This document shows positions 1,026-12,770 of a stretch of 64,000 nt of DNA, one piece after another. Origin of the DNA: Elusimicrobiaceae bacterium (GTDB taxonomy: Bacteria; Elusimicrobiota; Elusimicrobia; Elusimicrobiales; Elusimicrobiaceae); NCBI GenBank assembly GCA_017520185.1, contig JAFXGO010000026.1, forward strand, positions 14,729 to 78,728, written 5' to 3'. The notes beneath the pieces are model-generated. The model was not told the DNA's origin. It saw only the letters and a list, made by a program, of their open reading frames with translations, and ran no database searches. The translations under genes and the position numbers were made by a program. Position 1 is the first letter of the stretch. Each line of letters begins with the position of its first letter.

Positions 1026-1055
1026 AAAAAAAGAGGGGCTAGATGGCCCCTCTTA
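1026..1055 (-). terminator. Intrinsic terminator after marC
   Basis: 9-bp stem AAGAGGGGC/GCCCCTCTT followed by a U-tract on the minus strand. Confidence 0.75.
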
Positions 1056-1843: not shown

Positions 1844-2509
1844 TTAAATCGTTTGCAAGGTTGACTGACACCACGCAAACAAAAGTTCAAAGCTGTCGTC
1901 AAAATCATAAGACGTTGCTTGTTGTATTTCTATAGCGCGGGTCAAAACAGCATGATTTTGGCCATCTAATCTTTTCAAAAGTTCCATCTTGGTAGCGATA
2001 AATTCTCCATGCTGTAGATGGTAGATATTTTGAAGAATAAAGAACACCCCTTTATAGGCAAAAGGCAAAGAATCTATGTTGGTTTTTCGGTCGGCATGAA
2101 TAAAGCGATGGCAAATTTCGTGATACAAGTTATTCAGACTAATCTTTACAAAATTTCGTACGTCTTCTTTTGTATAGGCAGGTATCCAATCTTTTAACGT
2201 ACCATAATAATCTTTGGTGCTGTGCAAAACATGAGATATTTCTAAAGGATTCCAACGGGAAAGGTCTTGACGAGCACAGATAAAACCACAAGATTTGTCT
2301 GCATATTCTAAAGAATGAATGATGGTTTTGTACTGTGCCAAGTCATCCACACTTAAACCGTCTACTATTACCATCACATCTATATCACTTGCAGGGGAGG
2401 CTTCCCCACGCAAATAACTTCCCTGCAAACCTACGTATAAAAGCCTTTGTCCAAAATGTTTTTTTAGCAAAGAGAGCAGTCCTTCAATATAAACATCCAC
2501 CTGAAACAT
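1844..2509 (-). CDS. Nucleotidyltransferase-domain protein (Pol-beta superfamily)
   Basis: 221 aa with GSYLRGEASPASDIDVMVIVD (GS...DxD) motif. Confidence 0.8.
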   Translation of the reverse strand: MFQVDVYIEGLLSLLKKHFGQRLLYVGLQGSYLRGEASPASDIDVMVIVDGLSVDDLAQYKTIIHSLEYADKSCGFICARQDLSRWNPLEISHVLHSTKDYYGTLKDWIPAYTKEDVRNFVKISLNNLYHEICHRFIHADRKTNIDSLPFAYKGVFFILQNIYHLQHGEFIATKMELLKRLDGQNHAVLTRAIEIQQATSYDFDDSFELLFAWCQSTLQTI

Positions 2510-2513
2510 GCTT

Positions 2514-3797
2514 TTACCTCTCGATCTTTTTCTGTAAAGTTGGCATTCTTTTTCCAGGCTCTGTTTCTAATTCCTTTACTCTTTGTTTAAACAAATGGCG
2601 CAAGAGGGCAATATCTTGACGGCTGGTTCCAATGAAACAAAATCCGGCCTGACCATCTTTCACACGAGAGGTCAACACGATTCCGCCTTTAATGTTGGCT
2701 TTTTTATTTAGTTTTTCCAATTCAGAAATAACTTGTTTTGTGTTCCAAGACGGATTAAATTGCATTTTGGTATCTAAATAAAAATGCAATTTATCACGTT
2801 TAATGTTGTAAACAGTAGAAGCCAACCGTTGGCAAATACTAAAACCATTATAACGAGGATTACATTCCAAAGCACGTAGTTTTAATTTTCCTTCTTTCCA
2901 GCGCAAGGCCCAGTCTATATTAATTTGCCCTCGCATGCCCATGCTATAATAATACCCCGCCAATAAAAGAGTTTTTTCTTTTATTTTTCTTAACATGGAT
3001 TCCGGAGCTTTAGTAAAGGGATAAAAGCATCCCTCCCAGGCTTCCTTGTGGACAATTTGGCAATCCACACCGCCATAATAAATACCGTCTTCTTTTAACA
3101 TAGCCAATGTACCAAGACTGCGGTATATATCTTTATATCTTTCCAAATAAACATCCGTTTCTTGATGGGACTGCTTAAGTAGCGGAATTAACTCCAATAG
3201 TTTTCCTTTCACTGTTCCATAGCCGCCGGCGGAAACGGGATGACGCAACAGATATGTTTCCTGAAAATCTAATGCACTTAAAATACGGGCTTTTTGTCCT
3301 TTATAGGCTTTGTATACCGGAGAAATGGGAGTAATGTTAAATTTTTTACAAACTTTTTTAAACAACATTTTATCATTGGCTTTTTCAATGGATTTGTAAT
3401 TGTTGCTTAAATTGTTTCCGCATTGCCGGCTCAATGCAGCAAATTGCTTCGTGTACATTTGCGGCACCATCACATACCCATTGCGACATAAATGACTTAA
3501 TTTATCCACCAATTGTTTGTCTTTTGAAATAGCCTTGATTAAAGATTCGGACGGATCATGTTTGGCAGGAGTAAATAAAAAGTTTTTATGTTTTAACTTT
3601 TTAATACGCGCCATGTAAGACACAAAATCCGGATCAATATCCACCAACGGAGACAAGACGCAGTAATCACCCGGTTTAAGCAATAAAATATACTTCAAGG
3701 AAGACTCTTTCATCCCCTCGATGGATACTTCTTGCGAGAACAAACAATCGTCCGCGTTGATAATCCAAATTTTGTTAGGCATAAAACTTACCGTCAC
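2514..3797 (-). CDS. ATP-grasp amide/peptide ligase, PGM1-like with pre-ATP-grasp N-terminus (alternative start 3782)
   Basis: N-terminal LLLKPGDYCVLSPLVDIDPDFVSY resembles the pre-ATP-grasp region; ATP-grasp hallmarks ANDKMLFKK, SAGGYG, YLERY, NIDW, LECNPRYNG. Confidence 0.7.
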   Translation of the reverse strand: MTVSFMPNKIWIINADDCLFSQEVSIEGMKESSLKYILLLKPGDYCVLSPLVDIDPDFVSYMARIKKLKHKNFLFTPAKHDPSESLIKAISKDKQLVDKLSHLCRNGYVMVPQMYTKQFAALSRQCGNNLSNNYKSIEKANDKMLFKKVCKKFNITPISPVYKAYKGQKARILSALDFQETYLLRHPVSAGGYGTVKGKLLELIPLLKQSHQETDVYLERYKDIYRSLGTLAMLKEDGIYYGGVDCQIVHKEAWEGCFYPFTKAPESMLRKIKEKTLLLAGYYYSMGMRGQINIDWALRWKEGKLKLRALECNPRYNGFSICQRLASTVYNIKRDKLHFYLDTKMQFNPSWNTKQVISELEKLNKKANIKGGIVLTSRVKDGQAGFCFIGTSRQDIALLRHLFKQRVKELETEPGKRMPTLQKKIER

Positions 3798-4749
3798 AAA
3801 CGTGACTGCACTCTTTTAATGCAACGATATCCTCTTTGTCTGATGCTTTTAGACCACAAACCACAAAATCAAAACCATATTCCGTCAACAATTTAGAAAT
3901 TCTTCTTACACTTTCCAACTTTACTTCGTGCTTAAGCGTATGAGAAACGGTTTCTTGTTGAGAAGGTAAAATCTGACGGTCTTCATGCAAATAATTTTCT
4001 TTCAATGAAGCAAAAAATTCTTCGCCGTATTTTTTAATAATATTTTGGGCTACTGTTTTGTCATACAGCAGATAGGAAAACATGACACGAGTTAAACCGG
4101 CTTTTTTTAATTTCTCAAAAAACGGACGCAATATTTCTTCTTTATCTTCCACCCCCGGAATCAGCGGGTCCATATGCACCGTCACCAAAGCGCCTGCTTG
4201 TTGGGCTTTACCGGCCCAATAAATACGTTCTTCGGCAGGGGGGACATCGGTTTCCATGCATACGCTGGCGGCCGGCTTAATAGCAGCACTGTAAGAAAAC
4301 TTGGCAGGATGCTGAATAATTAAATCCATAATCTTATCATTAGGAACACCCTTTGTGGTAATAATAATACGTTTGATTTGTGGGTGATCCACCAGCAACT
4401 TCAACACATCATAAGAATATCCGCTATCTACAAATTTTTTACAAAAAATATCCGTATATCGCGAAAGTTTAACGATATGAATGGAAGGGTCAGAATCTAA
4501 CTGTTCTTTCATGCGGGCCAAAGCCTCTTGTGGCAAACAACCAATTTGAGGGTCATTAAATTTTCCGCCCAAAGATTCCACTTTTTTCACCACTTCGCTT
4601 CTGCTTTTAGCATAGCAATAGACACAATCATGCTGGCAACCGGTATAAGGTTCCAAATAATGATAGTTTCCATACCAACAAGTTCCCAAACAACCGGGAA
4701 CAAAAAATAAATCTTTATCACTTTTTTCGTTTTGTTTAATTATGCTCAT
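3775..4749 (-). CDS. Radical SAM protein, spore-photoproduct-lyase-like (SPL/Rv2578c-type) family
   Basis: EPYTGCQHDCVYCYA (CxxxCxxC), ITTKG, PPAEERI, DPLIPG motifs; overlaps the next gene. Confidence 0.85.
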   Translation of the reverse strand: MSIIKQNEKSDKDLFFVPGCLGTCWYGNYHYLEPYTGCQHDCVYCYAKSRSEVVKKVESLGGKFNDPQIGCLPQEALARMKEQLDSDPSIHIVKLSRYTDIFCKKFVDSGYSYDVLKLLVDHPQIKRIIITTKGVPNDKIMDLIIQHPAKFSYSAAIKPAASVCMETDVPPAEERIYWAGKAQQAGALVTVHMDPLIPGVEDKEEILRPFFEKLKKAGLTRVMFSYLLYDKTVAQNIIKKYGEEFFASLKENYLHEDRQILPSQQETVSHTLKHEVKLESVRRISKLLTEYGFDFVVCGLKASDKEDIVALKECSHVCDGKFYA

Positions 4750-4825
4750 ATATAAATTGTATAAAATATGAGGGACAAGAATAAAAAATGCTATACTATA
4801 ACCACTTTAAAAACAGGATTTTTCT

Positions 4826-5485
4826 ATGACGGACGGAACCAGCACCGATTGGAAAGAGTCTTCTTTGGCTCATTGGTATAATCAAAACATGCGCGGAGAC
4901 ATTGGCGGATATGCTGCCCTGTTTCGGTTTCACGCAAAAGACCGCGTTTTGGATTTAGGCTGTGGAGATGGCACTTTGTTGTCTATTGCCGCCGAGCAAG
5001 GGGCAGCCGTCACAGGTGTAGATATTTCCGATACACAATTATCCCTTACCCAAAAAGCCTTGTCCGGAAAAGAAAACGTCCTATTGATTAAAAAAACGCT
5101 ACAGGAAATTGATTTCCCGGAAAACTGTTTTACCAAAATTTCCATTCGTAAGGCTATTCATCATTTAACCAATGACGAAAAAGGCAAATTGATTGACAAG
5201 ATGCATCACTGGCTAGCACCCGGCGGAATAGTTATTATTGAAGATATGATTTTTTCTTTTGCTTTACATCGGGTGGAAGAAAATTTGCCTCTTATCGAAA
5301 AAGATGCCTCTTTGTACTACGGCGAAAAATGGCCTTCCTTTAAAAAAGCGTTCTTTACCACCGTGTACCAAGAACTTCCTTGTGATTTGGCACAAATGAC
5401 ACATCACTTGTTATTTACGGGATTTCATATAAAACAAATTATCCAACCCGTCTGTTTTACATCAACCATTATTGCTGAAAAATAA
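4826..5485 (+). CDS. Class I SAM-dependent methyltransferase
   Basis: VLDLGCGDG motif I, VTGVDIS, AIHHL, LAPGG. Confidence 0.9.
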   Translation: MTDGTSTDWKESSLAHWYNQNMRGDIGGYAALFRFHAKDRVLDLGCGDGTLLSIAAEQGAAVTGVDISDTQLSLTQKALSGKENVLLIKKTLQEIDFPENCFTKISIRKAIHHLTNDEKGKLIDKMHHWLAPGGIVIIEDMIFSFALHRVEENLPLIEKDASLYYGEKWPSFKKAFFTTVYQELPCDLAQMTHHLLFTGFHIKQIIQPVCFTSTIIAEK

Positions 5486-5486
5486 T

Positions 5487-6701
5487 ATGAAAAAATTTTT
5501 GACTCAAAGTAAAGGATGGGCATTAGTTATTGCCACTTTTGTTGTTGTTTTCTCTTTTAGCACCGTAGATCATGCCATCTCTCCTTTGGTGGAATGGTTA
5601 AGTTTTTTCTTTCACACCGGTGCAGAAAGAACTTTGTGGCTTATTTCTTCCTGTACTGCAGGTATTGTGCTCGGTTTATTTTTAGGACCGCAACTTTTAA
5701 AAACCTTTCGCATTTCTCAAGTTCTTTGGGCCAGCTTGTTGATGATGGTGGGAGGAATATGGGCTTTTGTCAGCATTCCCTTTTTTCCTGTTTCTTTACT
5801 AATTCGTCTTGTTTTCGGATTGGGAGCAGGTTTATTTAGCACCGTTTTATGGTGGCTGACATATGAAGCGATAGACAAACGTTTTTACCTTCCTATGATT
5901 ATCGTTTTGACGGCCGCACGTCCAATGGCGGTGGCGGCAGGGGTTCCGTTGGTTTTGTACTCAAGTACTTTGCTTAATTGGCGGGTATCGTTTGCTATTA
6001 CAGGTGTTTTAATTGCTCTGTTTTGCACCGCTTTTATTTTTACCGCTCCCCCTGATAATAAAGAAAAATCAAAATTCACCCTTATGGCTTTGTTCAAAAC
6101 GTATCAAACGGCATGGAAAACACCTCATTTAAAAGATTTTTTTACCGCCATGTTGATTAACCGTTTGTGTTATTTTGGATTTTATTCCATGCTGGGATTA
6201 TGGTTTATCGGTCATTATCAACTTTCAACACCTCAATTAGCACGCCCTTTGATGGCCATCGGCCTCTGCGAAACCATCATCAATTTTGTGGTGCCTGTAT
6301 TGATGAAAATAGGACAAAAAAAATTATTTTATTTATCCCTTCTTTTTAATATTGTGTTTTTTGGTTTATTTGCATGGGGAGCCTTGCCGTTATGGGTCAC
6401 TATTTTGTTCATCGGATTGTTTGCTATGACAGATCGCATTTATGGCATGTTGCTGCTTATTTTTATCCCTTCTATTTTCAAAGACTCCAAAGACCGCACC
6501 ACCATCGGCAGTTTGGTGACTTTGGTTTCTTGGATGTCTTTGATGTTAATTTCATGGATAGAGGGAAGTTTTTTAGAAAGCATAGGACTAAAAAACATGG
6601 CGGTCCTTTTGTTAGTATTTTTGGCTATCAGCTTTGCGCTATATATCAAAATGCTACGTAAAACTATTTTTTCTTCGAACAGCATTTCCAACAACACATA
6701 A
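5487..6701 (+). CDS. MFS transporter (probable exporter)
   Basis: About 12 hydrophobic segments; ATG 1 nt after the methyltransferase stop. Confidence 0.85.
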   Translation: MKKFLTQSKGWALVIATFVVVFSFSTVDHAISPLVEWLSFFFHTGAERTLWLISSCTAGIVLGLFLGPQLLKTFRISQVLWASLLMMVGGIWAFVSIPFFPVSLLIRLVFGLGAGLFSTVLWWLTYEAIDKRFYLPMIIVLTAARPMAVAAGVPLVLYSSTLLNWRVSFAITGVLIALFCTAFIFTAPPDNKEKSKFTLMALFKTYQTAWKTPHLKDFFTAMLINRLCYFGFYSMLGLWFIGHYQLSTPQLARPLMAIGLCETIINFVVPVLMKIGQKKLFYLSLLFNIVFFGLFAWGALPLWVTILFIGLFAMTDRIYGMLLLIFIPSIFKDSKDRTTIGSLVTLVSWMSLMLISWIEGSFLESIGLKNMAVLLLVFLAISFALYIKMLRKTIFSSNSISNNT

Positions 6702-6737: not shown

Positions 6738-6774
6738 AAAAACGCCCTTTGAGCAAACTGCAAAGGGCGTTTTT
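6738..6774. terminator. Bidirectional intrinsic terminator after the MFS gene
   Basis: AAAAACGCCCTTTG-N9-CAAAGGGCGTTTTT perfect inverted repeat. Confidence 0.8.
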
Positions 6775-6857: not shown

Positions 6858-6883
6858 AAAAAAACCCACACTAGGTGGGTTTT
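6858..6883 (-). terminator. Terminator after tRNA-Val
   Basis: AAAACCCAC-ACTAG-GTGGGTTTT hairpin with U-tract on the minus strand. Confidence 0.7.
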
Positions 6884-6887
6884 CAAA

Positions 6888-6962
6888 TGGTGGGCAGTAC
6901 AGGATTTGAACCTGTGACCTTCCGCGTGTGAGGCGGACGCGCTACCACTGCGCCAACTGCCC
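6888..6962 (-). tRNA. tRNA-Val, anticodon CAC, encoded CCA
   Basis: Cloverleaf: acceptor GGGCAGT/ACTGCCC, D-stem GCGC/GCGC, anticodon arm TCCGC-CTCACAC-GCGGA, T-loop TTCAAAT. Confidence 0.96.
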
Positions 6963-7075: not shown

Positions 7076-8092
7076 ATGTTTAAAAAAATTACAGCGCAAG
7101 ACTACGCCCCTATCAACAATGCCTGTCTGCTTATTCTGGCAGGTACTGCGCTTACTTGGATTTTGATTTATGCCAAAACGGTACTGATGCCTTTTGTGAT
7201 TGCCGTTTTCTTCTACATTGTACTTAACACTATTGCAGCATGGATACAAAAAAAATGGCAAATTCCTCATTTGCTGGGTGTTGTTTTAGGAGTATGTCTG
7301 TTCTTAGGAGTGGCAGGATTGTCTATTGCCTTTGTATCCAACTCCATCTCCTCCTTTGTGGACGGAGCCAATTCTTACGCAGGCAAATTAAATGACACCA
7401 TCTCTTGGTTCTTGTATAACGCAAGCAAACTTGGTGTTAAAATCAATTCCGAATTTATTTCTGACACCATCAACAAACTTCCTTTGCTGAATATGGCCAA
7501 AAGCATGGGAGGAGGCGTGATGTCCTTTGTCTCTAATACAATGTTGGTTTGTTTGTTCTTAATTTTCTTATTTATGGGCAGGTCCAATGATGAAAAAAAT
7601 TCTTTGGCTTCCTCCATCGAACAACAAATCTCCTATTATTTAATTATCAAAATTCTGGTTTCTTTATTAGCCGCCGCAGTCACGTGGGTTATTTTAACCA
7701 TCATTGGTACGGAGTTGGCGTTCATGTTTGCAGTGCTGACTTTTGTACTTAATTTTATCCCCAATATCGGGCCTTTTTTCGCCACCGCCTTACCGGCCCC
7801 TGTTTTATTTTTACAGTATGGAATAGATTGGCATTTGATCGTAGGAATCAGTTTGCTGATTGCGGCACATTTTGTGATTGGAAATATTCTGGAAACCAAA
7901 TGGCTGGGTAAAGGCATGGATTTAAATCCGGTCGTAGTAATTGCTTCCTTAATCTTTTGGGCCTTGGTTTGGGGGGCAGTGGGAGCACTGCTTGCCGTTC
8001 CTTTAACCTCTATTACCAAAATGATTTTGGAACGCAGCGAACCGACTAAACCCTTTGCCGATTTATTAGCCGGTCGTTTGCCGTTTAAATAA
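7076..8092 (+). CDS. AI-2E family transporter
   Basis: 338 aa membrane protein with LNFIPNIGP, GNILETKWLG, LLAVPLT motifs. Confidence 0.9.
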   Translation: MFKKITAQDYAPINNACLLILAGTALTWILIYAKTVLMPFVIAVFFYIVLNTIAAWIQKKWQIPHLLGVVLGVCLFLGVAGLSIAFVSNSISSFVDGANSYAGKLNDTISWFLYNASKLGVKINSEFISDTINKLPLLNMAKSMGGGVMSFVSNTMLVCLFLIFLFMGRSNDEKNSLASSIEQQISYYLIIKILVSLLAAAVTWVILTIIGTELAFMFAVLTFVLNFIPNIGPFFATALPAPVLFLQYGIDWHLIVGISLLIAAHFVIGNILETKWLGKGMDLNPVVVIASLIFWALVWGAVGALLAVPLTSITKMILERSEPTKPFADLLAGRLPFK

Positions 8093-8094
8093 CT

Positions 8095-9393
8095 ATGAAA
8101 AAATTGTCTCCCTGGTTTTTTATTCCTTCTCTTTATTTTTTAGAGGGATTACCTTACGTGCTTATAAACGTTGTATCGGGTGCGCTTTATACCAAGATGG
8201 GCATACCCAATGACGTCTTTGTTTTTTGGACCGGTTTTTTGTACCTTCCTTGGACTTTAAAAATGTTTTGGAGTCCTTTAATAGACGGCTATAGCACCAA
8301 ACGTCGTTGGCTTTTGTGGGGCCAATTTTTGGCGGCTGTCATTTTCTCTTTTGTAGCCTTTTCTTTGAGTTGGAATTGTTTTTTTACCGCTTCGTTATTA
8401 GGTTTTGCCGTAGGAGCCTTTGTTTCTGCCACGTGTGATATCGCTACCGACGGCTACTATATGCTTTCTCTTTCTGCTAATCAACAGGGATATTTCGTTG
8501 GCATTCGCACCATTTTTTACCGCTTGGCTATGATTTTTGGCGGTGGCACACTGCTGATGATTATCGGTTCTTGGGAAAAACAAACCGCTAATATTGTGCT
8601 TGCATGGAAATGGGGTTTGCTGTTAATAGCAGGCCTTTTTGTTGTATTGGGCTTATATCATGTATGGCTTTTGCCTCGTCCCGATTCTGACCGTCCGGCC
8701 ATGGCTTCTTCTCAAGGGAAAATGGCTTTTACAGAGGCATTCAAAACTTATTTTTCTCAAAAAAATATCGGATACATCCTTCTCTTTATTTTATTTTACC
8801 GATTAGGAGATGCTTTCCTGGAAAAAATTATCACCCCCTTTTTGATTGGCCCTGTAGACAGCGGTGCTTTGGGGTTGTCTACCGCGCAACTTGGTTTTAT
8901 TAAGGGCACGTTGGGTTTGGGTGCCATTATTGCAGGCAATTTGGCAGGAGGGTGGCTATTGGGAAAATACGGATTTAAAAAATGCATTTGGCCTTTTGCT
9001 TTCATCTTAATTTTGCCTAATTTCTTTTACGCTTATATGGCTTGGGCCAAACCCGGTATTGCTGTTATATCAGGATTAATTGCTTTGGAACATTTAGGCA
9101 ATGGGCTTGCCATGATGGCTTTTTCTATTTTTATTATGTACGTTTCTCAAGGGCCGTACAAAACTTCCCATTATGCTATTTCCACCGGCATTATGGCTTT
9201 GGGAATGATGCTTCCCTCTATGCTTTCAGGCAAAATGCAAGTAGCGCTGGGATATGAGGCTTTTTTTGCGCTTTGTGCTATTTTCAGTTTAATTACTCTG
9301 GCCATTGTACCGCTTACCTTTAAAATTAAATCCATCGAAGAAACTGAAAAACTTTTTCGAGAAAACAAAGCATCTATAGGAGAGATGGACTAA
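8095..9393 (+). CDS. ampG: AmpG-like muropeptide MFS transporter
   Basis: YFLEGLPY, PWTLKMFWSPLID, DIATDGYY motifs; context with murQ/anmK/nagZ. Confidence 0.85.
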   Translation: MKKLSPWFFIPSLYFLEGLPYVLINVVSGALYTKMGIPNDVFVFWTGFLYLPWTLKMFWSPLIDGYSTKRRWLLWGQFLAAVIFSFVAFSLSWNCFFTASLLGFAVGAFVSATCDIATDGYYMLSLSANQQGYFVGIRTIFYRLAMIFGGGTLLMIIGSWEKQTANIVLAWKWGLLLIAGLFVVLGLYHVWLLPRPDSDRPAMASSQGKMAFTEAFKTYFSQKNIGYILLFILFYRLGDAFLEKIITPFLIGPVDSGALGLSTAQLGFIKGTLGLGAIIAGNLAGGWLLGKYGFKKCIWPFAFILILPNFFYAYMAWAKPGIAVISGLIALEHLGNGLAMMAFSIFIMYVSQGPYKTSHYAISTGIMALGMMLPSMLSGKMQVALGYEAFFALCAIFSLITLAIVPLTFKIKSIEETEKLFRENKASIGEMD

Positions 9394-10286
9394 TGTCTAA
9401 AATCCGCTTAATTCCCACCGAAACAGTAAATATGCATACGCAGAAATTAGGCCAATCTTCAGTCAAGCAAATCGCACACCTGATTAATGCAGAAGATTTT
9501 AATGCTGCACGCGCTGTAAAAAAAGCGGCTGATTCTATCAGCCAAACTATTCAGTTGGCAGCGGAAACTTTTTTAAACGGCGGAAAAATTATTTTCATCG
9601 GAGCCGGGACCAGCGGTAGGTTAGGAGTATTGGAAGCGGCAGAATGTGTGCCTACTTTCGGCACCAAACCCTCACAAATTATAGGCATTATCGCCGGCGG
9701 GAAAAAAGCCATGTTTCGCTCTCAAGAAGGGGCTGAAGACGACACCATGCAAGGGTGTAAAGATATTTTAAAAGTTGCCAAAGAGAAAGATTTGGTTATC
9801 GGGTTAACTGCCAGCGGTATTACTCCCTACGTATTAGCCGCTTTAAAACAAGCCAAATCTATCGGAGCACAAACAGTTCTGCTGGCTTGTAATCAACAGG
9901 CAGATATATCCTTTGCCGATATTTTTATTTTCTTAGATACAGGAGCAGAAGCACTAAACGGATCCACCCGTATGAAGGCCGGCACCGCCACCAAAATGGC
10001 TTTAAATGCCATTTCCACCGGAGCGATGGCACGCGCCGGAAAAGTATACGGCAATCTAATGATAGATGTGCAACCCACCAATCAAAAACTCATTGGGCGG
10101 GCCATACGCCTTATTTGTACTATTGCTCAAACAGACGAAAAAACGGCTGAAAAGTTGCTTTATTCTTCCGGCAAAAGCGTTAAAACGGCCATTGTCATGC
10201 ATTTAAAAAAACTCAACAAAAAACAAGCAGAAAAACTTATCAAGAAACATCATGGTTTTTTGGAAGGAGCCTTACGTGAGTCATAA
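9393..10286 (+). CDS. murQ: N-acetylmuramic acid 6-phosphate etherase
   Basis: GAGTSGRLGVLEAAECVPTFG, GAED, GSTRMKAGTATK, GKVYGNLMIDV motifs. Confidence 0.95.
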   Translation: MSKIRLIPTETVNMHTQKLGQSSVKQIAHLINAEDFNAARAVKKAADSISQTIQLAAETFLNGGKIIFIGAGTSGRLGVLEAAECVPTFGTKPSQIIGIIAGGKKAMFRSQEGAEDDTMQGCKDILKVAKEKDLVIGLTASGITPYVLAALKQAKSIGAQTVLLACNQQADISFADIFIFLDTGAEALNGSTRMKAGTATKMALNAISTGAMARAGKVYGNLMIDVQPTNQKLIGRAIRLICTIAQTDEKTAEKLLYSSGKSVKTAIVMHLKKLNKKQAEKLIKKHHGFLEGALRES

Positions 10287-11367
10287 AAAAATCATATTAG
10301 GGCTTATGAGTGGCACCAGTTGCGACGGTTTAACCGTTTGCGCTGTTCTTCCTCACCCGTTTAAAATTCTCGGTTTTAAAAACTATCCTTATACTACAGC
10401 TTTACAAAAAAGATTGCTTCTCGCGTCGCAATGCCAAGCGGCAGAACTTTCTTCTTTGCACTTTGAACTTGGCAAATTGTATGCGCAAAAAACGCTTTTA
10501 TTTTTAAAACAATTTCGCTTTAAAAAAGAAGATATTTTTGCCGTCGGCATGCATGGACAAACCGTTTATCATGGTCCAAACGATGCACAACCAAACACGT
10601 TGCAAATTGCAGAGCCTTCTTTTTTGGCCGAAGCATTAGGACGGCCTGTAGTGAGTAATTTTAGAGAAAGAGATATTGTGTCGGGTGGAGAAGGAGCCCC
10701 TTTGATTCCTTTTTTTGATGAGTATTTATTTGGGAAATCAGCACCCAAAATATTACTCAATTTAGGCGGCATCTCTAATATTTCTGTTGTGGGAAAAGGC
10801 GTAAAAACACAAGGGTTTGATTGTGGTCCGGCTAATACGCTGATGGACTTGGCCTGCGAAAAATTTTTAAACATTCCCTTTGATAAAAATGGTGCTTTAG
10901 CCATGCAAGGCAAACCCAATTTCTCCCTTATCAAAAAACTTTTAAAGCAATCCTATTTCTCTGCAAAACCACCCAAAAGTTTAGATAAGAATCAATTTGG
11001 CAAAGCCTATTTAGAAAAATATTTTTCTGCTTATTCTGCTAAAAATATATATGATTTATTGGCCACTTTAAACCTTTTTACGGCAGCCGCCGTAGCAGAT
11101 GCCATTGAGCGTTTTGTTCCTAAAAAACTGCAAAAAGAAATTATTGTTTCCGGCGGAGGAACTTACAATAAAACATTGCTGTTAAATTTGCAAAAACAAA
11201 CAGGAATCCCTGTTAAAACATCGTCTCAAATCGGCATCGACCCTCAAGCCAAAGAAGCAGCTGCTTTTGCCGTAATGGCTTGGCTTACCTTGCAACGCAA
11301 AAGCAACCATTGTCCGCAAGCAACGGGAGCGAAGAAAAAAGTTATCTTGGGAAGGATTACTTTATGA
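10276..11367 (+). CDS. anmK: Anhydro-N-acetylmuramic acid kinase (GTG start)
   Basis: GLMSGTSCDG, HGQT, GGEGAPL, NLGGISN, FDCGPAN, SGGG, KEA motifs. Confidence 0.95.
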   Translation: MSHKKIILGLMSGTSCDGLTVCAVLPHPFKILGFKNYPYTTALQKRLLLASQCQAAELSSLHFELGKLYAQKTLLFLKQFRFKKEDIFAVGMHGQTVYHGPNDAQPNTLQIAEPSFLAEALGRPVVSNFRERDIVSGGEGAPLIPFFDEYLFGKSAPKILLNLGGISNISVVGKGVKTQGFDCGPANTLMDLACEKFLNIPFDKNGALAMQGKPNFSLIKKLLKQSYFSAKPPKSLDKNQFGKAYLEKYFSAYSAKNIYDLLATLNLFTAAAVADAIERFVPKKLQKEIIVSGGGTYNKTLLLNLQKQTGIPVKTSSQIGIDPQAKEAAAFAVMAWLTLQRKSNHCPQATGAKKKVILGRITL

Positions 11368-12770
11368 ATGTTAACCGTTTGATTTATCCTGGTTTCTGGT
11401 TTGGAAAAACAAAAAAAGAAGAAGCCTTAGAACTGGCCAAACGCGGAGTAGGTGGCTTTTGTATTTATGGCGGCACACGCCAAAGCGTACAGGATTTAGT
11501 TAAGCAACTGAAAGAAGCCTCCCCTTTAAAACATCTATTTTTTTGCGCCGATTATGAAGACGGATTAGGCAAATGGATAGAAGGAGAAGATTGGGTTTTA
11601 TCCAATATGGCAATAGGCGCTTGCCGGAACCAAGAAATCGCTTATCAAAAAGGCCTTACTTTGGCACGAGAAGCGCGAGAAATAGGTATAGATTGGGTGT
11701 TTGCTCCGGTTCTGGATTTATGCGATGAGCCAACAAACCCCATTGTAAACACACGCTCTTTTGGTAGTGTTGCTCAACACGTAGCCTCCTTAGGTAAGGC
11801 TTTATGTCAGGGGCTTTCTGACGGTGGGGTGTTAAATAGCATCAAGCATTTTCCCGGTCATGGAAGAACGACGCAAGACTCACATTTGGTATTGCCCGTT
11901 TTAGAACGAACCCTCCAAGAATTGGAAGAAAACGAATTGATCCCTTTTCAATCTTGTCTTGAACAGGCCGATAGTGTAATGGTGGGGCATTTGTTGCTGC
12001 CGACATTAGACAGACAAAATCCGGCTTCTTTATCTAAAAAAATTATTTCTGGTTTGTTAAAAGAAAAAATGGGTTTTGAAAAACTCATTTTTACCGATGC
12101 CCTATGCATGAAAGCCATCGGAGAAGAAAAGCAAGCCGCATTGCAAGCCTTACACGCAGGAGCGCATATTTTGCTCAGCGCAGAAGACTCATTGTCTTTG
12201 TCTGACTTTTTACAACAACAAAGCGGATTGTCGGAAATTATCACCCAATCTGTTTATCTTCAAGAAAAAGCTTCTCAACAGTTAACCCCCGTCAAAACCG
12301 GTCTTCATCCGCGTCACTTCAACCGCTCTTATGCCGCCTCATGCGCCGTATATCAAGGGGAACCCGTCGCTCTTTCCGCAGGAGATACAGTGGCTTATTT
12401 AGAATTGGGAAACGAAGAAAACCTAGCCGCTAAGGCCTTTACAGAAACTTTGCTAAAACAAGGAATACTGCTCAAAAAAGCAGGAGAAAAGGCCGATTAT
12501 TTAATGGTTGTATCTTTTTCTAATTACAAAGCCTTCAAAGGACATATTAATTTGTCTGATAAAGAAAAAGAAATATTGCAATATTGGAGTCAGAAATATT
12601 CTTCTTGTTTTGTGAGTTTCGGCAGCCCTTTCGGCACAGAAAACATTGATGCGTTAAAAGCACGATTGTTCCTTTTCTCTCCAGCTCAAGAAGCACAAAT
12701 TTGCGCGGCAGAAATATTGTTGGGAAAACAAAAACCCAAAGGGATTTGCCCCTTTGGGTCTTCGCAATAA
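11364..12770 (+). CDS. nagZ: GH3 beta-N-acetylhexosaminidase
   Basis: FAPVLD, RSFG, KHFPGHG..DSH, FTDALCM; ATGA overlap with anmK. Confidence 0.88.
   Translation: MNVNRLIYPGFWFGKTKKEEALELAKRGVGGFCIYGGTRQSVQDLVKQLKEASPLKHLFFCADYEDGLGKWIEGEDWVLSNMAIGACRNQEIAYQKGLTLAREAREIGIDWVFAPVLDLCDEPTNPIVNTRSFGSVAQHVASLGKALCQGLSDGGVLNSIKHFPGHGRTTQDSHLVLPVLERTLQELEENELIPFQSCLEQADSVMVGHLLLPTLDRQNPASLSKKIISGLLKEKMGFEKLIFTDALCMKAIGEEKQAALQALHAGAHILLSAEDSLSLSDFLQQQSGLSEIITQSVYLQEKASQQLTPVKTGLHPRHFNRSYAASCAVYQGEPVALSAGDTVAYLELGNEENLAAKAFTETLLKQGILLKKAGEKADYLMVVSFSNYKAFKGHINLSDKEKEILQYWSQKYSSCFVSFGSPFGTENIDALKARLFLFSPAQEAQICAAEILLGKQKPKGICPFGSSQ

What the first reader, a model, noticed from the sequence alone, without database searches (positions are those of the whole stretch)
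1844..6701. Compact orphan biosynthetic cluster: radical SAM + PGM1-like ATP-grasp ligase + nucleotidyltransferase // methyltransferase + MFS exporter
Seen: two back-to-back operons share a 76-bp divergent promoter. Leftward are rSAM, ATP-grasp (overlapping rSAM) and NTase (4-nt gap); rightward are the methyltransferase and MFS (1-nt gap), closed by a terminator next to tRNA-Val. Known: ATP-grasp ligases of the pheganomycin/ketomemicin PGM1 type join non-proteinogenic amino acids to peptides, and such clusters usually carry tailoring enzymes and an exporter. Inference: this is a minimal small-molecule pathway (rSAM-built unusual building block, ligated, methylated, exported). I cannot match this five-gene combination to a described pathway.
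Basis: partly seen in the sequence, partly recalled or inferred. Interest (0 to 1): 0.78.

Follow-up and report, generated by a model that had tools for sequence, protein, structure and literature searches.

The report
Conserved four-gene orphan peptide-ligase module
Four of the five flagged genes (methyltransferase, radical SAM enzyme, PGM1/BesA-type ATP-grasp ligase, MFS transporter) form a rare, undescribed module kept together across several bacterial phyla, most likely making and exporting a small modified peptide-like compound; the fifth gene, the nucleotidyltransferase, is an unrelated neighbour.

Summary
The radical SAM gene falls into 56 distinct types (90% identity). Where the contig allows a check, it has the ATP-grasp gene directly downstream in 40/41, the methyltransferase upstream in 46/47 and the MFS transporter adjacent in 31/32. 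Host loci range from 37 to 69% GC and include Elusimicrobiota, Ozemobacteraceae/Riflebacteria, Xenobia and Oligoflexia. Outside the window's family the usual form is one operon, MTase→rSAM→ligase→MFS; the window carries a divergent rearrangement of it. The test fails for the nucleotidyltransferase, which belongs to a very large family found alone in unrelated contexts. By profile and fold the ligase is homologous to PGM1, BesA and PDB 8ynd. The radical SAM enzyme is closest in fold to spore photoproduct lyase and has three extra invariant cysteines. In about 90% of junctions its stop codon overlaps the ligase start by 8 nt. I found no precursor peptide, no riboswitch and no published description. 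Best reading (about 0.5): a self-contained pathway for a radical-modified, methylated, dipeptide-like molecule with its own transporter. The chemistry and the direction of transport are unknown.

The parts
4826..5485 (+). Class I SAM-dependent methyltransferase (219 aa); conserved module member, first gene of the operon in most other lineages
   Evidence: Methyltransf_25 at 1.7e-18. The best solved relatives are phosphoethanolamine N-methyltransferases, matching over the SAM-binding part only (2e-12). A homologue lies next to the rSAM gene in 46 of 47 assessable rSAM types.
5487..6701 (+). MFS transporter (404 aa from the ATG at 5487; the mechanical ORF starts at the TTG at 5472); conserved module member, direction of transport unknown
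   Evidence: MFS_1 at 4.3e-15. No NCBIfam or PDB sequence match. A homologue is present in 31 of 32 assessable rSAM types. The start is taken as in L128.
3775..4749 (-). Radical SAM enzyme with a spore-photoproduct-lyase-like fold (324 aa): CX3CX2C at C38/C42/C45, extra invariant C24, C298 and C318, and a conserved C-terminal CDGxFYA
   Evidence: The AF2 model has pLDDT 89.6. Best PDB matches are SPL entries 4rh0/4fhc (E 1e-7, TM 0.62-0.65). Homologues at 38-48% identity occur in several phyla.
2514..3782 (-). PGM1/BesA-type ATP-grasp amide ligase (422 aa from the ATG at 3782), overlapping the rSAM stop by 8 nt
   Evidence: The AF2 model has pLDDT 83.7. The SAGGYG loop and E311-x-N313 motif are conserved. 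The overlap is conserved across phyla.
4750..4825 (.). 76-bp AT-rich divergent intergenic region; presumed promoter region for both units
   Evidence: Sequence. The scan found no consensus sigma-70 site here, so promoter function is inferred from geometry only.
6743..6774 (+). Intrinsic terminator after the MFS gene (9-bp GC-rich stem plus T-run; an A-run upstream makes it potentially bidirectional)
   Evidence: dG -21.8 kcal/mol, z -7.1.
1844..2509 (-). 221-aa nucleotidyltransferase, 4 nt downstream of the ligase and probably co-transcribed here, but NOT a conserved member of the module (a passenger gene)
   Evidence: NTP_transf_2 at 28.6 bits. Absent next to the module in all other loci except the near-identical L128; in L019 a homologue lies about 2 kb away on the other strand. 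The family is very large and highly conserved, and occurs alone in unrelated contexts.

Best explanation
Window 2514-6701 carries a self-contained four-gene module: a class I methyltransferase, an SPL-like radical SAM enzyme, a PGM1/BesA-type ATP-grasp ligase and an MFS transporter. I propose it makes a small peptide-like metabolite from ordinary cellular precursors and moves it across the membrane. Proposed mechanism (inferred, not shown): the ligase activates a carboxylate as an acyl phosphate and joins it to the amine of an amino acid, giving a dipeptide or pseudodipeptide. The radical SAM enzyme is translationally coupled to the ligase and probably works in complex with it. It would carry out a hydrogen-abstraction-initiated change on the acid substrate or on the ligated product, possibly using a second metal site built from C24, C298 and C318. 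The methyltransferase adds a methyl group, and the MFS protein exports the product. What is shown: gene presence, the homologies, intact catalytic motifs, and tight conservation of the four genes as a unit across phyla. What is inferred: the substrate class, the order of steps, the direction of transport and the role of the product. The nucleotidyltransferase next door is not part of the module.
For: (1) Co-occurrence. Among 56 distinct rSAM types, the ligase lies directly downstream in 40/41 assessable, the MTase upstream in 46/47 and the MFS gene adjacent in 31/32. All four are together in at least 28 types, in loci of 37-69% GC. Pfam-annotated examples are L064-L066, L131 and L133. Flanking genes differ from locus to locus, so only these four travel together.
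(2) Coupling. The rSAM stop and ligase start share the 8-nt overlap TATGCCTAR in about 38 of 42 unique junctions.
(3) Ligase family. The broadened profile hits 8ynd (2.4e-44), PGM1 (5.5e-30) and the L-propargylglycine--L-glutamate ligase BesA (1.6e-27) over the full length. Foldseek gives TM 0.65-0.72. PreAtp-grasp is found in 31/39 family members. The glycine loop and ExN motif are invariant.
(4) rSAM. CX3CX2C is present, the fold is SPL-like, and three further cysteines are invariant.
(5) No conserved small ORF flanks the module and there is no riboswitch. This fits a small-molecule pathway fed from primary metabolism.
(6) Peptidases recur nearby. An M20 peptidase lies directly upstream of the MTase in 12 high-GC loci. 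Remote ligase relatives sit beside M20 or isoaspartyl-peptidase (Asparaginase_2) genes. This fits a dipeptide-type product.
(7) From general knowledge, not tested here: an ATP-grasp ligase paired with an MFS exporter is the pattern of dipeptide antibiotics such as bacilysin (BacD/BacE).
Against: No product is known and no enzyme of this module has been assayed. The direction of MFS transport cannot be read from the sequence. Within Elusimicrobiales one clade keeps only rSAM and ligase (L004-L012), and another keeps the ligase alone (E. minutum L001, L013, L014, L019, L020), with catalytic residues intact. This shows the ligase can work without export or radical chemistry and hints at an intracellular role. 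The only characterised enzyme with this rSAM fold acts on DNA. The window's own rSAM and ligase score just below Pfam's cut-offs. Expression evidence is one 165-nt metatranscriptome contig.
Confidence: 0.5

Rival explanations
1. The module makes an intracellular metabolite such as a cofactor, protective solute or storage dipeptide, or it salvages an imported compound. The MFS protein would then take up a precursor or recapture the product rather than export it.
For: Some Elusimicrobiales keep rSAM and ligase, or the ligase alone, without the MFS and MTase genes. That is easier to explain if the ligase product is used inside the cell. Peptidases are often adjacent (M20; Asparaginase_2 next to remote relatives), suggesting synthesis and breakdown cycles. 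No resistance or regulator gene accompanies the module.
Against: The module is rare and patchy: the ligase family has only 166 clusters at E<=1e-3 among 1.84 billion representatives. That is unlike a core cofactor. An ATP-consuming ligase is an odd member of a catabolic route. The MFS gene is retained in 31/32 assessable types.
Confidence: 0.22
2. The ligase attaches an rSAM- and MTase-modified acid to a ribosomally made peptide or a protein encoded elsewhere, as PGM1 does with its peptide substrate. The module would then be a peptide or protein modification system.
For: PGM1, one of the three closest characterised homologues, uses ribosomal peptides as the nucleophile (general knowledge; homology). 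Tight rSAM-ligase coupling would also suit a modification complex.
Against: No conserved small ORF lies within 700 nt of the module in any lineage. The genes are packed with no room for one. BesA, an equally close homologue, joins two free amino acids. A dedicated MFS transporter fits a small molecule better.
Confidence: 0.13
3. One reading: a five-gene pathway in which the nucleotidyltransferase is a tailoring or self-resistance enzyme of the same pathway.
For: In the window, and in the 99%-identical L128, the NTase starts 4 nt after the ligase stop with no terminator between them, so it is probably co-transcribed. In E. simillimum (L019) a 38%-identical homologue lies about 2 kb from the lone ligase gene.
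Against: No NTase gene was found in the flanks held for any other module-bearing locus (more than 60). The NTase family has more than 3,580 clusters; the top 120 are 59-71% identical (plus the window's own protein at 100%) and nearly all 220-224 aa long. The two Clostridiales homologues I looked up each stand beside unrelated genes. The ligase family, by contrast, has about 80-170 clusters.
Confidence: 0.05
4. The genes are unrelated neighbours: a DNA-repair-type rSAM enzyme, a housekeeping ligase and an unrelated methyltransferase and pump.
For: The rSAM enzyme is labelled 'DNA repair photolyase' by one source and its best fold match is SPL.
Against: Adjacency is conserved across phyla while the flanks vary, and the start/stop overlap is conserved too. 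The rSAM enzyme scores far below the cut-offs of the Rv2578c and PA0069 families (39.7 vs 430 bits; 36.8 vs 360).
Confidence: 0.03

Closest known systems
PGM1 (pheganomycin), BesA (L-propargylglycine--L-glutamate ligase) and the Streptomyces ATP-grasp peptide ligase PDB 8ynd
   Same: Same ligase superfamily: an N-terminal pre-ATP-grasp domain followed by the ATP-grasp core. Full-length profile matches (2.4e-44, 5.5e-30, 1.6e-27) and fold matches (TM 0.65-0.72). The expected chemistry, an acyl phosphate attacked by an amine, is the same.
   Different: Only 12-15% identity to these three. PGM1_C is not detected in the window protein and is found in only 2/39 family members. The partners differ: no amidinotransferase, halogenase, oxygenase or PLP enzyme as in those actinobacterial pathways. 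Instead the ligase is translationally coupled to an SPL-like rSAM enzyme. The hosts are uncultivated anaerobes, not actinomycetes.
Dipeptide antibiotic clusters with an ATP-grasp ligase and an MFS exporter, e.g. bacilysin bacABCDEF with BacD and BacE (from general knowledge, not tested here)
   Same: Same logic: a few enzymes build an unusual amino acid, an ATP-grasp ligase joins it to a second amino acid, and an MFS pump exports the product.
   Different: BacD belongs to another ATP-grasp family. Those warheads are built by prephenate-derived or other non-radical chemistry. No bioactivity or product is known for the present module.
Spore photoproduct lyase (SplB; PDB 4fhc, 4rh0)
   Same: Best structural match to the rSAM enzyme (E about 1e-7, TM 0.62-0.65). 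Shares the CxxxCxYCY motif form.
   Different: 15-16% identity and no sequence-level PDB hit. The rSAM enzyme lacks about 50 residues that SPL has before the cluster motif. It has three other invariant cysteines and a conserved C-terminal CDGxFYA. Its gene context is biosynthetic and transport-related, not spore or DNA repair.
Arsinothricin cluster arsQML (radical SAM ArsL, methyltransferase ArsM, permease ArsQ; PMC8552651)
   Same: A compact set of a radical SAM enzyme, a SAM-dependent methyltransferase and a permease that makes and exports a non-proteinogenic amino acid antibiotic.
   Different: ArsL has 428 residues with CX3CX2C at 194-201. ArsM has 378 residues with four catalytic cysteines. 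ArsQ is gluconate-permease-like. Here the rSAM enzyme has 324 residues with the motif at 38-45, and the 219-aa MTase shows no four-cysteine pattern like ArsM's in the three sequences I read by eye (window, L093, L101). The transporter is an MFS protein and a ligase is added. NCBIfam hits to ArsM-type models are far below their cut-offs.

Membership tests
PGM1/BesA-type (pre-ATP-grasp) ATP-grasp amide ligases | N-terminal pre-ATP-grasp domain (Pfam PF18604) | tested here: met
   The window protein scores 26.4 bits (E 1.1e-5), just under the 27.5 cut-off. 31 of 39 family members match, the best at 5.2e-16. The operon ligases in L064-L066, L131 and L133 carry the precomputed hit.
PGM1/BesA-type (pre-ATP-grasp) ATP-grasp amide ligases | Full-length sequence and fold homology to characterised members | tested here: met
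   Profile A3 against the PDB: 8ynd 2.4e-44, PGM1 5.5e-30, BesA 1.6e-27. Foldseek E 1e-15 to 1e-20, TM 0.65-0.72. The narrow Elusimicrobia-only profile found nothing, so the link depends on intermediate sequences.
PGM1/BesA-type (pre-ATP-grasp) ATP-grasp amide ligases | ATP-grasp catalytic motifs: conserved lysine, glycine-rich loop, ExN | tested here: met
   K143 is invariant, S189-A-G-G-Y-G194 and E311-C-N313 are conserved in A1, and K143, N313 and R315 remain invariant in the broad alignment A3. Motif definitions are from PMC4431377.
PGM1/BesA-type (pre-ATP-grasp) ATP-grasp amide ligases | PGM1 C-terminal domain (PF18105) | tested here: not met
   Not detected in the window protein; found in only 2 of 39 family members.
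PGM1/BesA-type (pre-ATP-grasp) ATP-grasp amide ligases | ATP-dependent amide bond formation between a carboxylate and an amino acid or peptide amine | not testable with these tools
   Needs an enzyme assay.
Radical SAM superfamily, SPL-like branch (COG1533: SplB, PA0069, Rv2578c) | CX3CX2C cluster motif and radical SAM core | tested here: met
   C38/C42/C45 are invariant in 32/32 sequences. Pfam Radical_SAM scores 23.3 bits, below the 29.5 cut-off, for the window protein, but PF04055 is precomputed for most homologues.
Radical SAM superfamily, SPL-like branch (COG1533: SplB, PA0069, Rv2578c) | Fold closest to spore photoproduct lyase | tested here: met
   The top six PDB matches are all SPL entries (E 9e-8 to 2e-6, TM 0.59-0.65). 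The next family, NifB, scores 4e-5 with TM 0.41.
Radical SAM superfamily, SPL-like branch (COG1533: SplB, PA0069, Rv2578c) | Membership of the curated Rv2578c or PA0069 families | tested here: not met
   39.7 bits against a cut-off of 430, and 36.8 against 360. It is a separate family within the branch.
Radical SAM superfamily, SPL-like branch (COG1533: SplB, PA0069, Rv2578c) | DNA spore-photoproduct repair function | not testable with these tools
   The context argues against it: the gene is fixed between a methyltransferase and a ligase and sits with a transporter. Activity was not assayed.
RiPP-like or PGM1-type pathway with a genetically encoded peptide substrate | A conserved short precursor ORF in or next to the cluster | tested here: not met
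   No small-ORF family (18-110 aa) within 700 nt of the module is shared beyond closely related loci. The genes abut or overlap.
Arsinothricin-type arsQML cluster | ArsL-type rSAM enzyme, ArsM with four catalytic cysteines, GntP-like ArsQ permease | tested here: not met
   Sizes, motif positions and transporter family all differ (paper read; sequences). The cysteine comparison rests on three MTase sequences read by eye. There was no NCBIfam ArsL hit, and ArsM-type hits are far below their cut-offs.
Aminoglycoside nucleotidyltransferases (ANT), considered for the neighbouring NTase | Score above the curated family cut-offs | tested here: not met
   The best hit is PRK13746 at 22.8 bits against a cut-off of 193, covering only the N-terminal roughly 60 residues. 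The only PDB match is marginal (E 0.046).

The most novel reading that the evidence does not exclude
An SPL-like radical SAM enzyme and a PGM1/BesA-type ligase form an obligate complex that defines a new class of radical-modified, methylated dipeptide metabolites. These would be made by uncultivated gut, rumen and digester anaerobes (Elusimicrobiota, Riflebacteria, Xenobia). The enzyme would be the first from the photoproduct-lyase branch shown to act in small-molecule biosynthesis, and its three invariant extra cysteines would form a second metal site with new chemistry.
Probability: 0.3. Interest if true: 0.78.

Novelty: new variant of a known kind. Interest (0 to 1): 0.6.

Why it matters
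If the reading is right, this is a compact and portable pathway: four genes, about 4.2 kb, with no dedicated regulator or precursor gene among its conserved members. It would make an unknown metabolite in several poorly studied, mostly uncultivated phyla from animal guts, rumen and anaerobic digesters.

It would give a first function to a branch of the radical SAM superfamily whose only characterised relative repairs DNA. It would also take PGM1/BesA-type ligases, which are useful biocatalysts for amide bonds, beyond actinomycetes.

The small size and the conserved rSAM-ligase coupling make the module easy to test by heterologous expression.

For annotation, the result separates a real four-gene unit from a passenger nucleotidyltransferase. 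It also corrects two start codons.

Tried and rejected
- **Riboswitch or leader RNA:** Rfam at gathering threshold on 11 module loci and on the whole window gave nothing relevant. The only hits were tRNA-Val and a SAM riboswitch in L069 that belongs to another gene.
- **Precursor peptide:** no small ORF is conserved across lineages.
- **NTase as a member:** rejected on distribution.
- **MarC, AI-2E, AmpG and MurQ as members:** they do not travel with the module. MarC recurs only in one other organism, about 2 kb from the module.
- **Anti-phage defence reading:** PADLOC gave only weak generic hits, to NTase-type PDC-S09 models and to the MTase-like part of mad2.
- **Arsinothricin-like reading:** rejected after reading PMC8552651.
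- **Sinefungin-like adenosylation:** that pathway uses a B12-dependent rSAM enzyme, so it is unrelated.
- **Direct PDB sequence searches:** the narrow ligase profile, the rSAM profile and the MFS protein found nothing useful. Only the broadened ligase profile worked.
- **Literature:** seven searches bearing on this gene set found no description of it. Iyer et al. 2009 (PMC3268129) is not held.
- **Expression:** only one RNA run holds any of the region, as a single 165-nt contig. This is too little to define transcripts.
- **Transport direction of the MFS protein:** no family-level match was available to decide it.

Full report
**What is in the sequence**

All five ORFs are present at the stated coordinates:
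- nucleotidyltransferase (NTase) 1844-2509(-)
- ATP-grasp ligase 2514-3797(-)
- radical SAM (rSAM) enzyme 3775-4749(-)
- methyltransferase (MTase) 4826-5485(+)
- MFS transporter 5472-6701(+)

tRNA-Val(CAC) lies at 6888-6962(-). The divergent gap is 76 bp.

Two starts should be moved. All ligase homologues begin at MPNKIW, and the gene call in the 99%-identical contig L128 (GCA_045633545.1) starts there too. The ligase therefore starts at the ATG at 3782 and overlaps the rSAM stop by 8 nt, not 23. The MFS gene starts at the ATG at 5487, 1 nt after the MTase stop.

A strong hairpin with a T-run at 6743-6774 follows the MFS gene (dG -21.8 kcal/mol, z -7.1). The consensus scan found no sigma-70-like promoter in the 76-bp gap, so the shared promoter is an inference. 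Base composition across the cluster (36-40% GC) does not stand out from the flanks.

**Domains**

Pfam gives NTP_transf_2, PreAtp-grasp, Radical_SAM, Methyltransf_25 and MFS_1. The ligase and rSAM hits fall just below Pfam's cut-offs for the window proteins.

NCBIfam places the rSAM enzyme weakly near the Rv2578c and PA0069 families, at 39.7 and 36.8 bits against cut-offs of 430 and 360. It gives only generic hits for the MTase and nothing for the ligase or the MFS protein. PADLOC gave nothing convincing.

**Co-occurrence, the decisive test**

Close ligase homologues form only 31 clusters at 47% identity or more. Every one that carries a source name is from Elusimicrobia, and all close matches in the genome scan are Elusimicrobiales.

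The rSAM enzyme, however, has homologues at 38-48% identity in Ozemobacteraceae/Riflebacteria, Candidatus Bruticola (Vulcanimicrobiota, class Xenobia), other Elusimicrobia, Oligoflexia and a gammaproteobacterial MAG.

Looking up their contigs showed a tightly packed, co-directional operon: MTase→rSAM→PreAtp-grasp ligase→MFS (L064, L065, L066, L131, L133). The Oligoflexia copy has the first three genes.

A metagenome scan with the rSAM profile added 61 loci. After merging rSAM sequences at 90% identity there are 56 types (L066 corrected):
- ligase directly downstream in 40 of 41 assessable types
- MTase upstream in 46 of 47
- MFS gene adjacent in 31 of 32
- all four together in at least 28 types, in loci of 37-69% GC

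Thirty-four types are co-directional. Eleven have the divergent layout of the window, and these are the closest relatives of the window's rSAM (58% identity or more, plus one at 51%). The named ones are Elusimicrobia.

Flanking genes differ between loci. Homologues of the window's other neighbours (MarC, AI-2E, AmpG, MurQ) do not accompany the module elsewhere. The four genes are therefore a unit, and the window carries a rearranged copy.

**The nucleotidyltransferase is a passenger**

It is next to the module only in the window and in L128. In E. simillimum (L019) a 38%-identical gene lies about 2 kb away on the other strand, beyond a 482-aa gene.

Its family is very large, with more than 3,580 clusters. 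The best 120 are 59-71% identical (plus the window's own protein at 100%), and nearly all are 220-224 aa long. Only two of these carry a source name, one Elusimicrobiaceae and one Clostridiales. The two Clostridiales homologues I looked up each stand next to unrelated genes.

It scores far below every curated aminoglycoside-NTase cut-off. Here it is probably co-transcribed with the ligase, but it is not part of the conserved system.

**The ligase**

The AF2 model (pLDDT 83.7) matches 8ynd (a Streptomyces ATP-grasp peptide ligase), BesA and PGM1 best, at E 1e-15 to 1e-20 and TM 0.65-0.72. Carboxylases and PurK-type enzymes follow well behind.

A profile search of 1.84 billion representatives found only 166 clusters at E<=1e-3 and 82 at E<=1e-10, so the family is rare. 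A broadened alignment of those hits then matched three PDB entries over the full length:
- 8ynd at 2.4e-44
- PGM1 at 5.5e-30
- BesA (L-propargylglycine--L-glutamate ligase) at 1.6e-27

PreAtp-grasp is found in 31 of 39 members and PGM1_C in only 2.

The catalytic lysine, the SAGGYG loop and E311-x-N313 are conserved (motif definitions from PMC4431377). 'PGM1-like' is therefore correct at superfamily level.

**The radical SAM enzyme**

The model (pLDDT 89.6) is closest to spore photoproduct lyase (E about 1e-7, TM 0.62-0.65, 15-16% identity). No solved structure is related by sequence.

Besides C38/C42/C45, three cysteines are invariant: C24 (32/32), C298 (31/31) and C318 (31/31). A cysteine at position 20 (20/32) and another at 314 or 315 (24/32) are partly conserved. 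The protein ends in a near-invariant CDGxFYA. This suggests a second metal site, either an auxiliary Fe-S cluster or zinc, but that is an inference.

The last codons, TAT GCC TAR, contain the ligase start ATG. This 8-nt overlap is present in about 38 of 42 unique junctions from different phyla. It argues for translational coupling and probably a physical complex.

**The other two genes**

The MTase is a small class I enzyme. Its best solved relatives are phosphoethanolamine N-methyltransferases, but only over the SAM-binding core, so the atom it methylates is unknown.

The MFS protein has no informative relative, so the direction of transport is unknown.

**Further context**

- No riboswitch or leader RNA precedes the module.
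- No conserved small ORF flanks it.
- In 12 high-GC loci an M20 peptidase lies 0-145 nt upstream of the MTase gene.
- In Ozemobacteraceae a pyruvate-kinase-barrel protein overlaps the MFS stop.
- Remote ligase relatives (22-28% identity) sit next to M20 peptidases in candidate-phyla-radiation bacteria. In Leptolyngbyaceae and Thiodiazotropha they sit next to isoaspartyl-peptidase-type (Asparaginase_2) genes.
- Within Elusimicrobiales there is a reduction series: four genes; then rSAM and ligase only (L004-L012); then the ligase alone (E. minutum Emin_0095, E. simillimum, L013, L014, L020). Catalytic residues stay intact throughout.
- The ligase is therefore the core gene and can function without the others.

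**Interpretation**

The best-supported reading (about 0.5) is a self-contained small-molecule pathway. A PGM1/BesA-type ligase makes an amide, most simply a dipeptide or pseudodipeptide, from common metabolites. A coupled SPL-like rSAM enzyme and a methyltransferase tailor the substrate or the product. The MFS protein moves it, most likely outward.

The closest analogies by logic are ATP-grasp/MFS dipeptide antibiotic clusters such as bacilysin (from general knowledge) and the Bes pathway, where BesA's dipeptide is the substrate for later tailoring.

The rivals are:
- an intracellular or salvage role with the MFS protein importing (0.22), favoured by the ligase-only lineages and the nearby peptidases
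- ligation to a ribosomal peptide or a protein encoded elsewhere (0.13), weakened by the absence of any precursor ORF
- the five-gene version including the NTase (0.05)
- unrelated neighbours (0.03)

**Novelty**

Seven full-text searches bearing on this gene set found no description of it. The arsinothricin arsQML cluster and the sinefungin pathway were examined and do not match.

I rate the module a new variant of a known kind: an ATP-grasp-ligase small-peptide pathway with a new partner enzyme and new hosts. It is a good, easily tested lead rather than a demonstrated new system. Expression evidence is minimal, a single 165-nt metatranscriptome contig at 3615-3779.

Noticed in passing
window 7076-12770: Just beyond tRNA-Val lies a run of genes: an AI-2E family transporter, an AmpG-type muropeptide MFS permease and a MurQ-like SIS-domain protein. 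In the near-identical L128 these are followed by AnmK and a GH3 (NagZ-like) enzyme. Together they look like a peptidoglycan-recycling gene set. Homologues of the AI-2E, AmpG and MurQ-like proteins do not accompany the module in other genera.
   Followed up: partly
window 1844-2509: The 221-aa nucleotidyltransferase belongs to a strikingly uniform family: more than 3,580 clusters, of which the best 120 are 59-71% identical (plus the window's own protein at 100%) and nearly all 220-224 aa long. The only named homologues are from Elusimicrobiaceae and Clostridiales, and the gene contexts are unrelated. That degree of conservation suggests a widely shared or horizontally spread gene of unknown substrate. 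Only the N-terminal roughly 60 residues match known NTase models.
   Followed up: partly
window 1031-1054 and 6858-6885: A 10-bp GC-rich bidirectional terminator follows MarC. No terminator was detected between the ligase, NTase and MarC genes, so the leftward transcript may run from the rSAM gene through MarC. A second hairpin with a T-run directly follows tRNA-Val on the minus strand (read).
   Followed up: no
L093 929-2167; also L077, L082/L083, L091, L101, L107, L111, L113, L116, L125: An M20-family peptidase lies directly upstream of the module's methyltransferase gene (gap 0-145 nt, same strand) in 12 high-GC loci. It could be a lineage-specific fifth component, such as a dipeptidase, or simply conserved synteny.
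   Followed up: partly
L065 10476-11483: A 335-aa protein with only a pyruvate-kinase barrel domain (PF00224) overlaps the stop of the module's MFS gene in the Ozemobacteraceae locus L065. The blastp cluster holding it spans 13 loci, but that grouping is contaminated by shadow ORFs. Its role is unknown.
   Followed up: no
L027 7364-8293, L039 10719-11750, L025 10862-11971: Remote relatives of the ligase (22-28% identity) sit beside peptidase genes. In a Leptolyngbya genome (L027) and a Thiodiazotropha MAG (L039) the neighbour is an Asparaginase_2 (isoaspartyl-peptidase-type) gene. In a Falkowbacteria MAG (L025), and by M20 homology also in L024 and the Nomurabacteria L036, it is an M20 peptidase. 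This points to a wider ligase-plus-dipeptidase theme.
   Followed up: partly
L069 2937-3049(-): A SAM riboswitch (51.3 bits) lies downstream of the module's MFS gene and an epimerase-like ORF. It sits upstream of a 312-aa protein with no Pfam match and a cysteine-rich C-terminus. It does not regulate the module.
   Followed up: partly
L004 6355-6993 (also L005-L012, L013): In the Elusimicrobiales clade that has lost the MTase and MFS genes, a VanX-like M15 D-Ala-D-Ala dipeptidase gene lies 44 nt upstream of the rSAM gene. It is also present in L013, where the rSAM gene is gone, so it is probably just a syntenic neighbour.
   Followed up: partly
L119 355-843: The rSAM homologue here appears truncated, at about 160 aa on a contig that continues beyond it, and no ligase gene follows. 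It may be a decayed copy of the module.
   Followed up: no
window 3615-3779: One gut metatranscriptome run holds a single 165-nt contig identical to the 5' end of the ligase gene, up to its overlap with the rSAM stop. This is the only RNA evidence found, and DNA carry-over cannot be excluded.
   Followed up: yes
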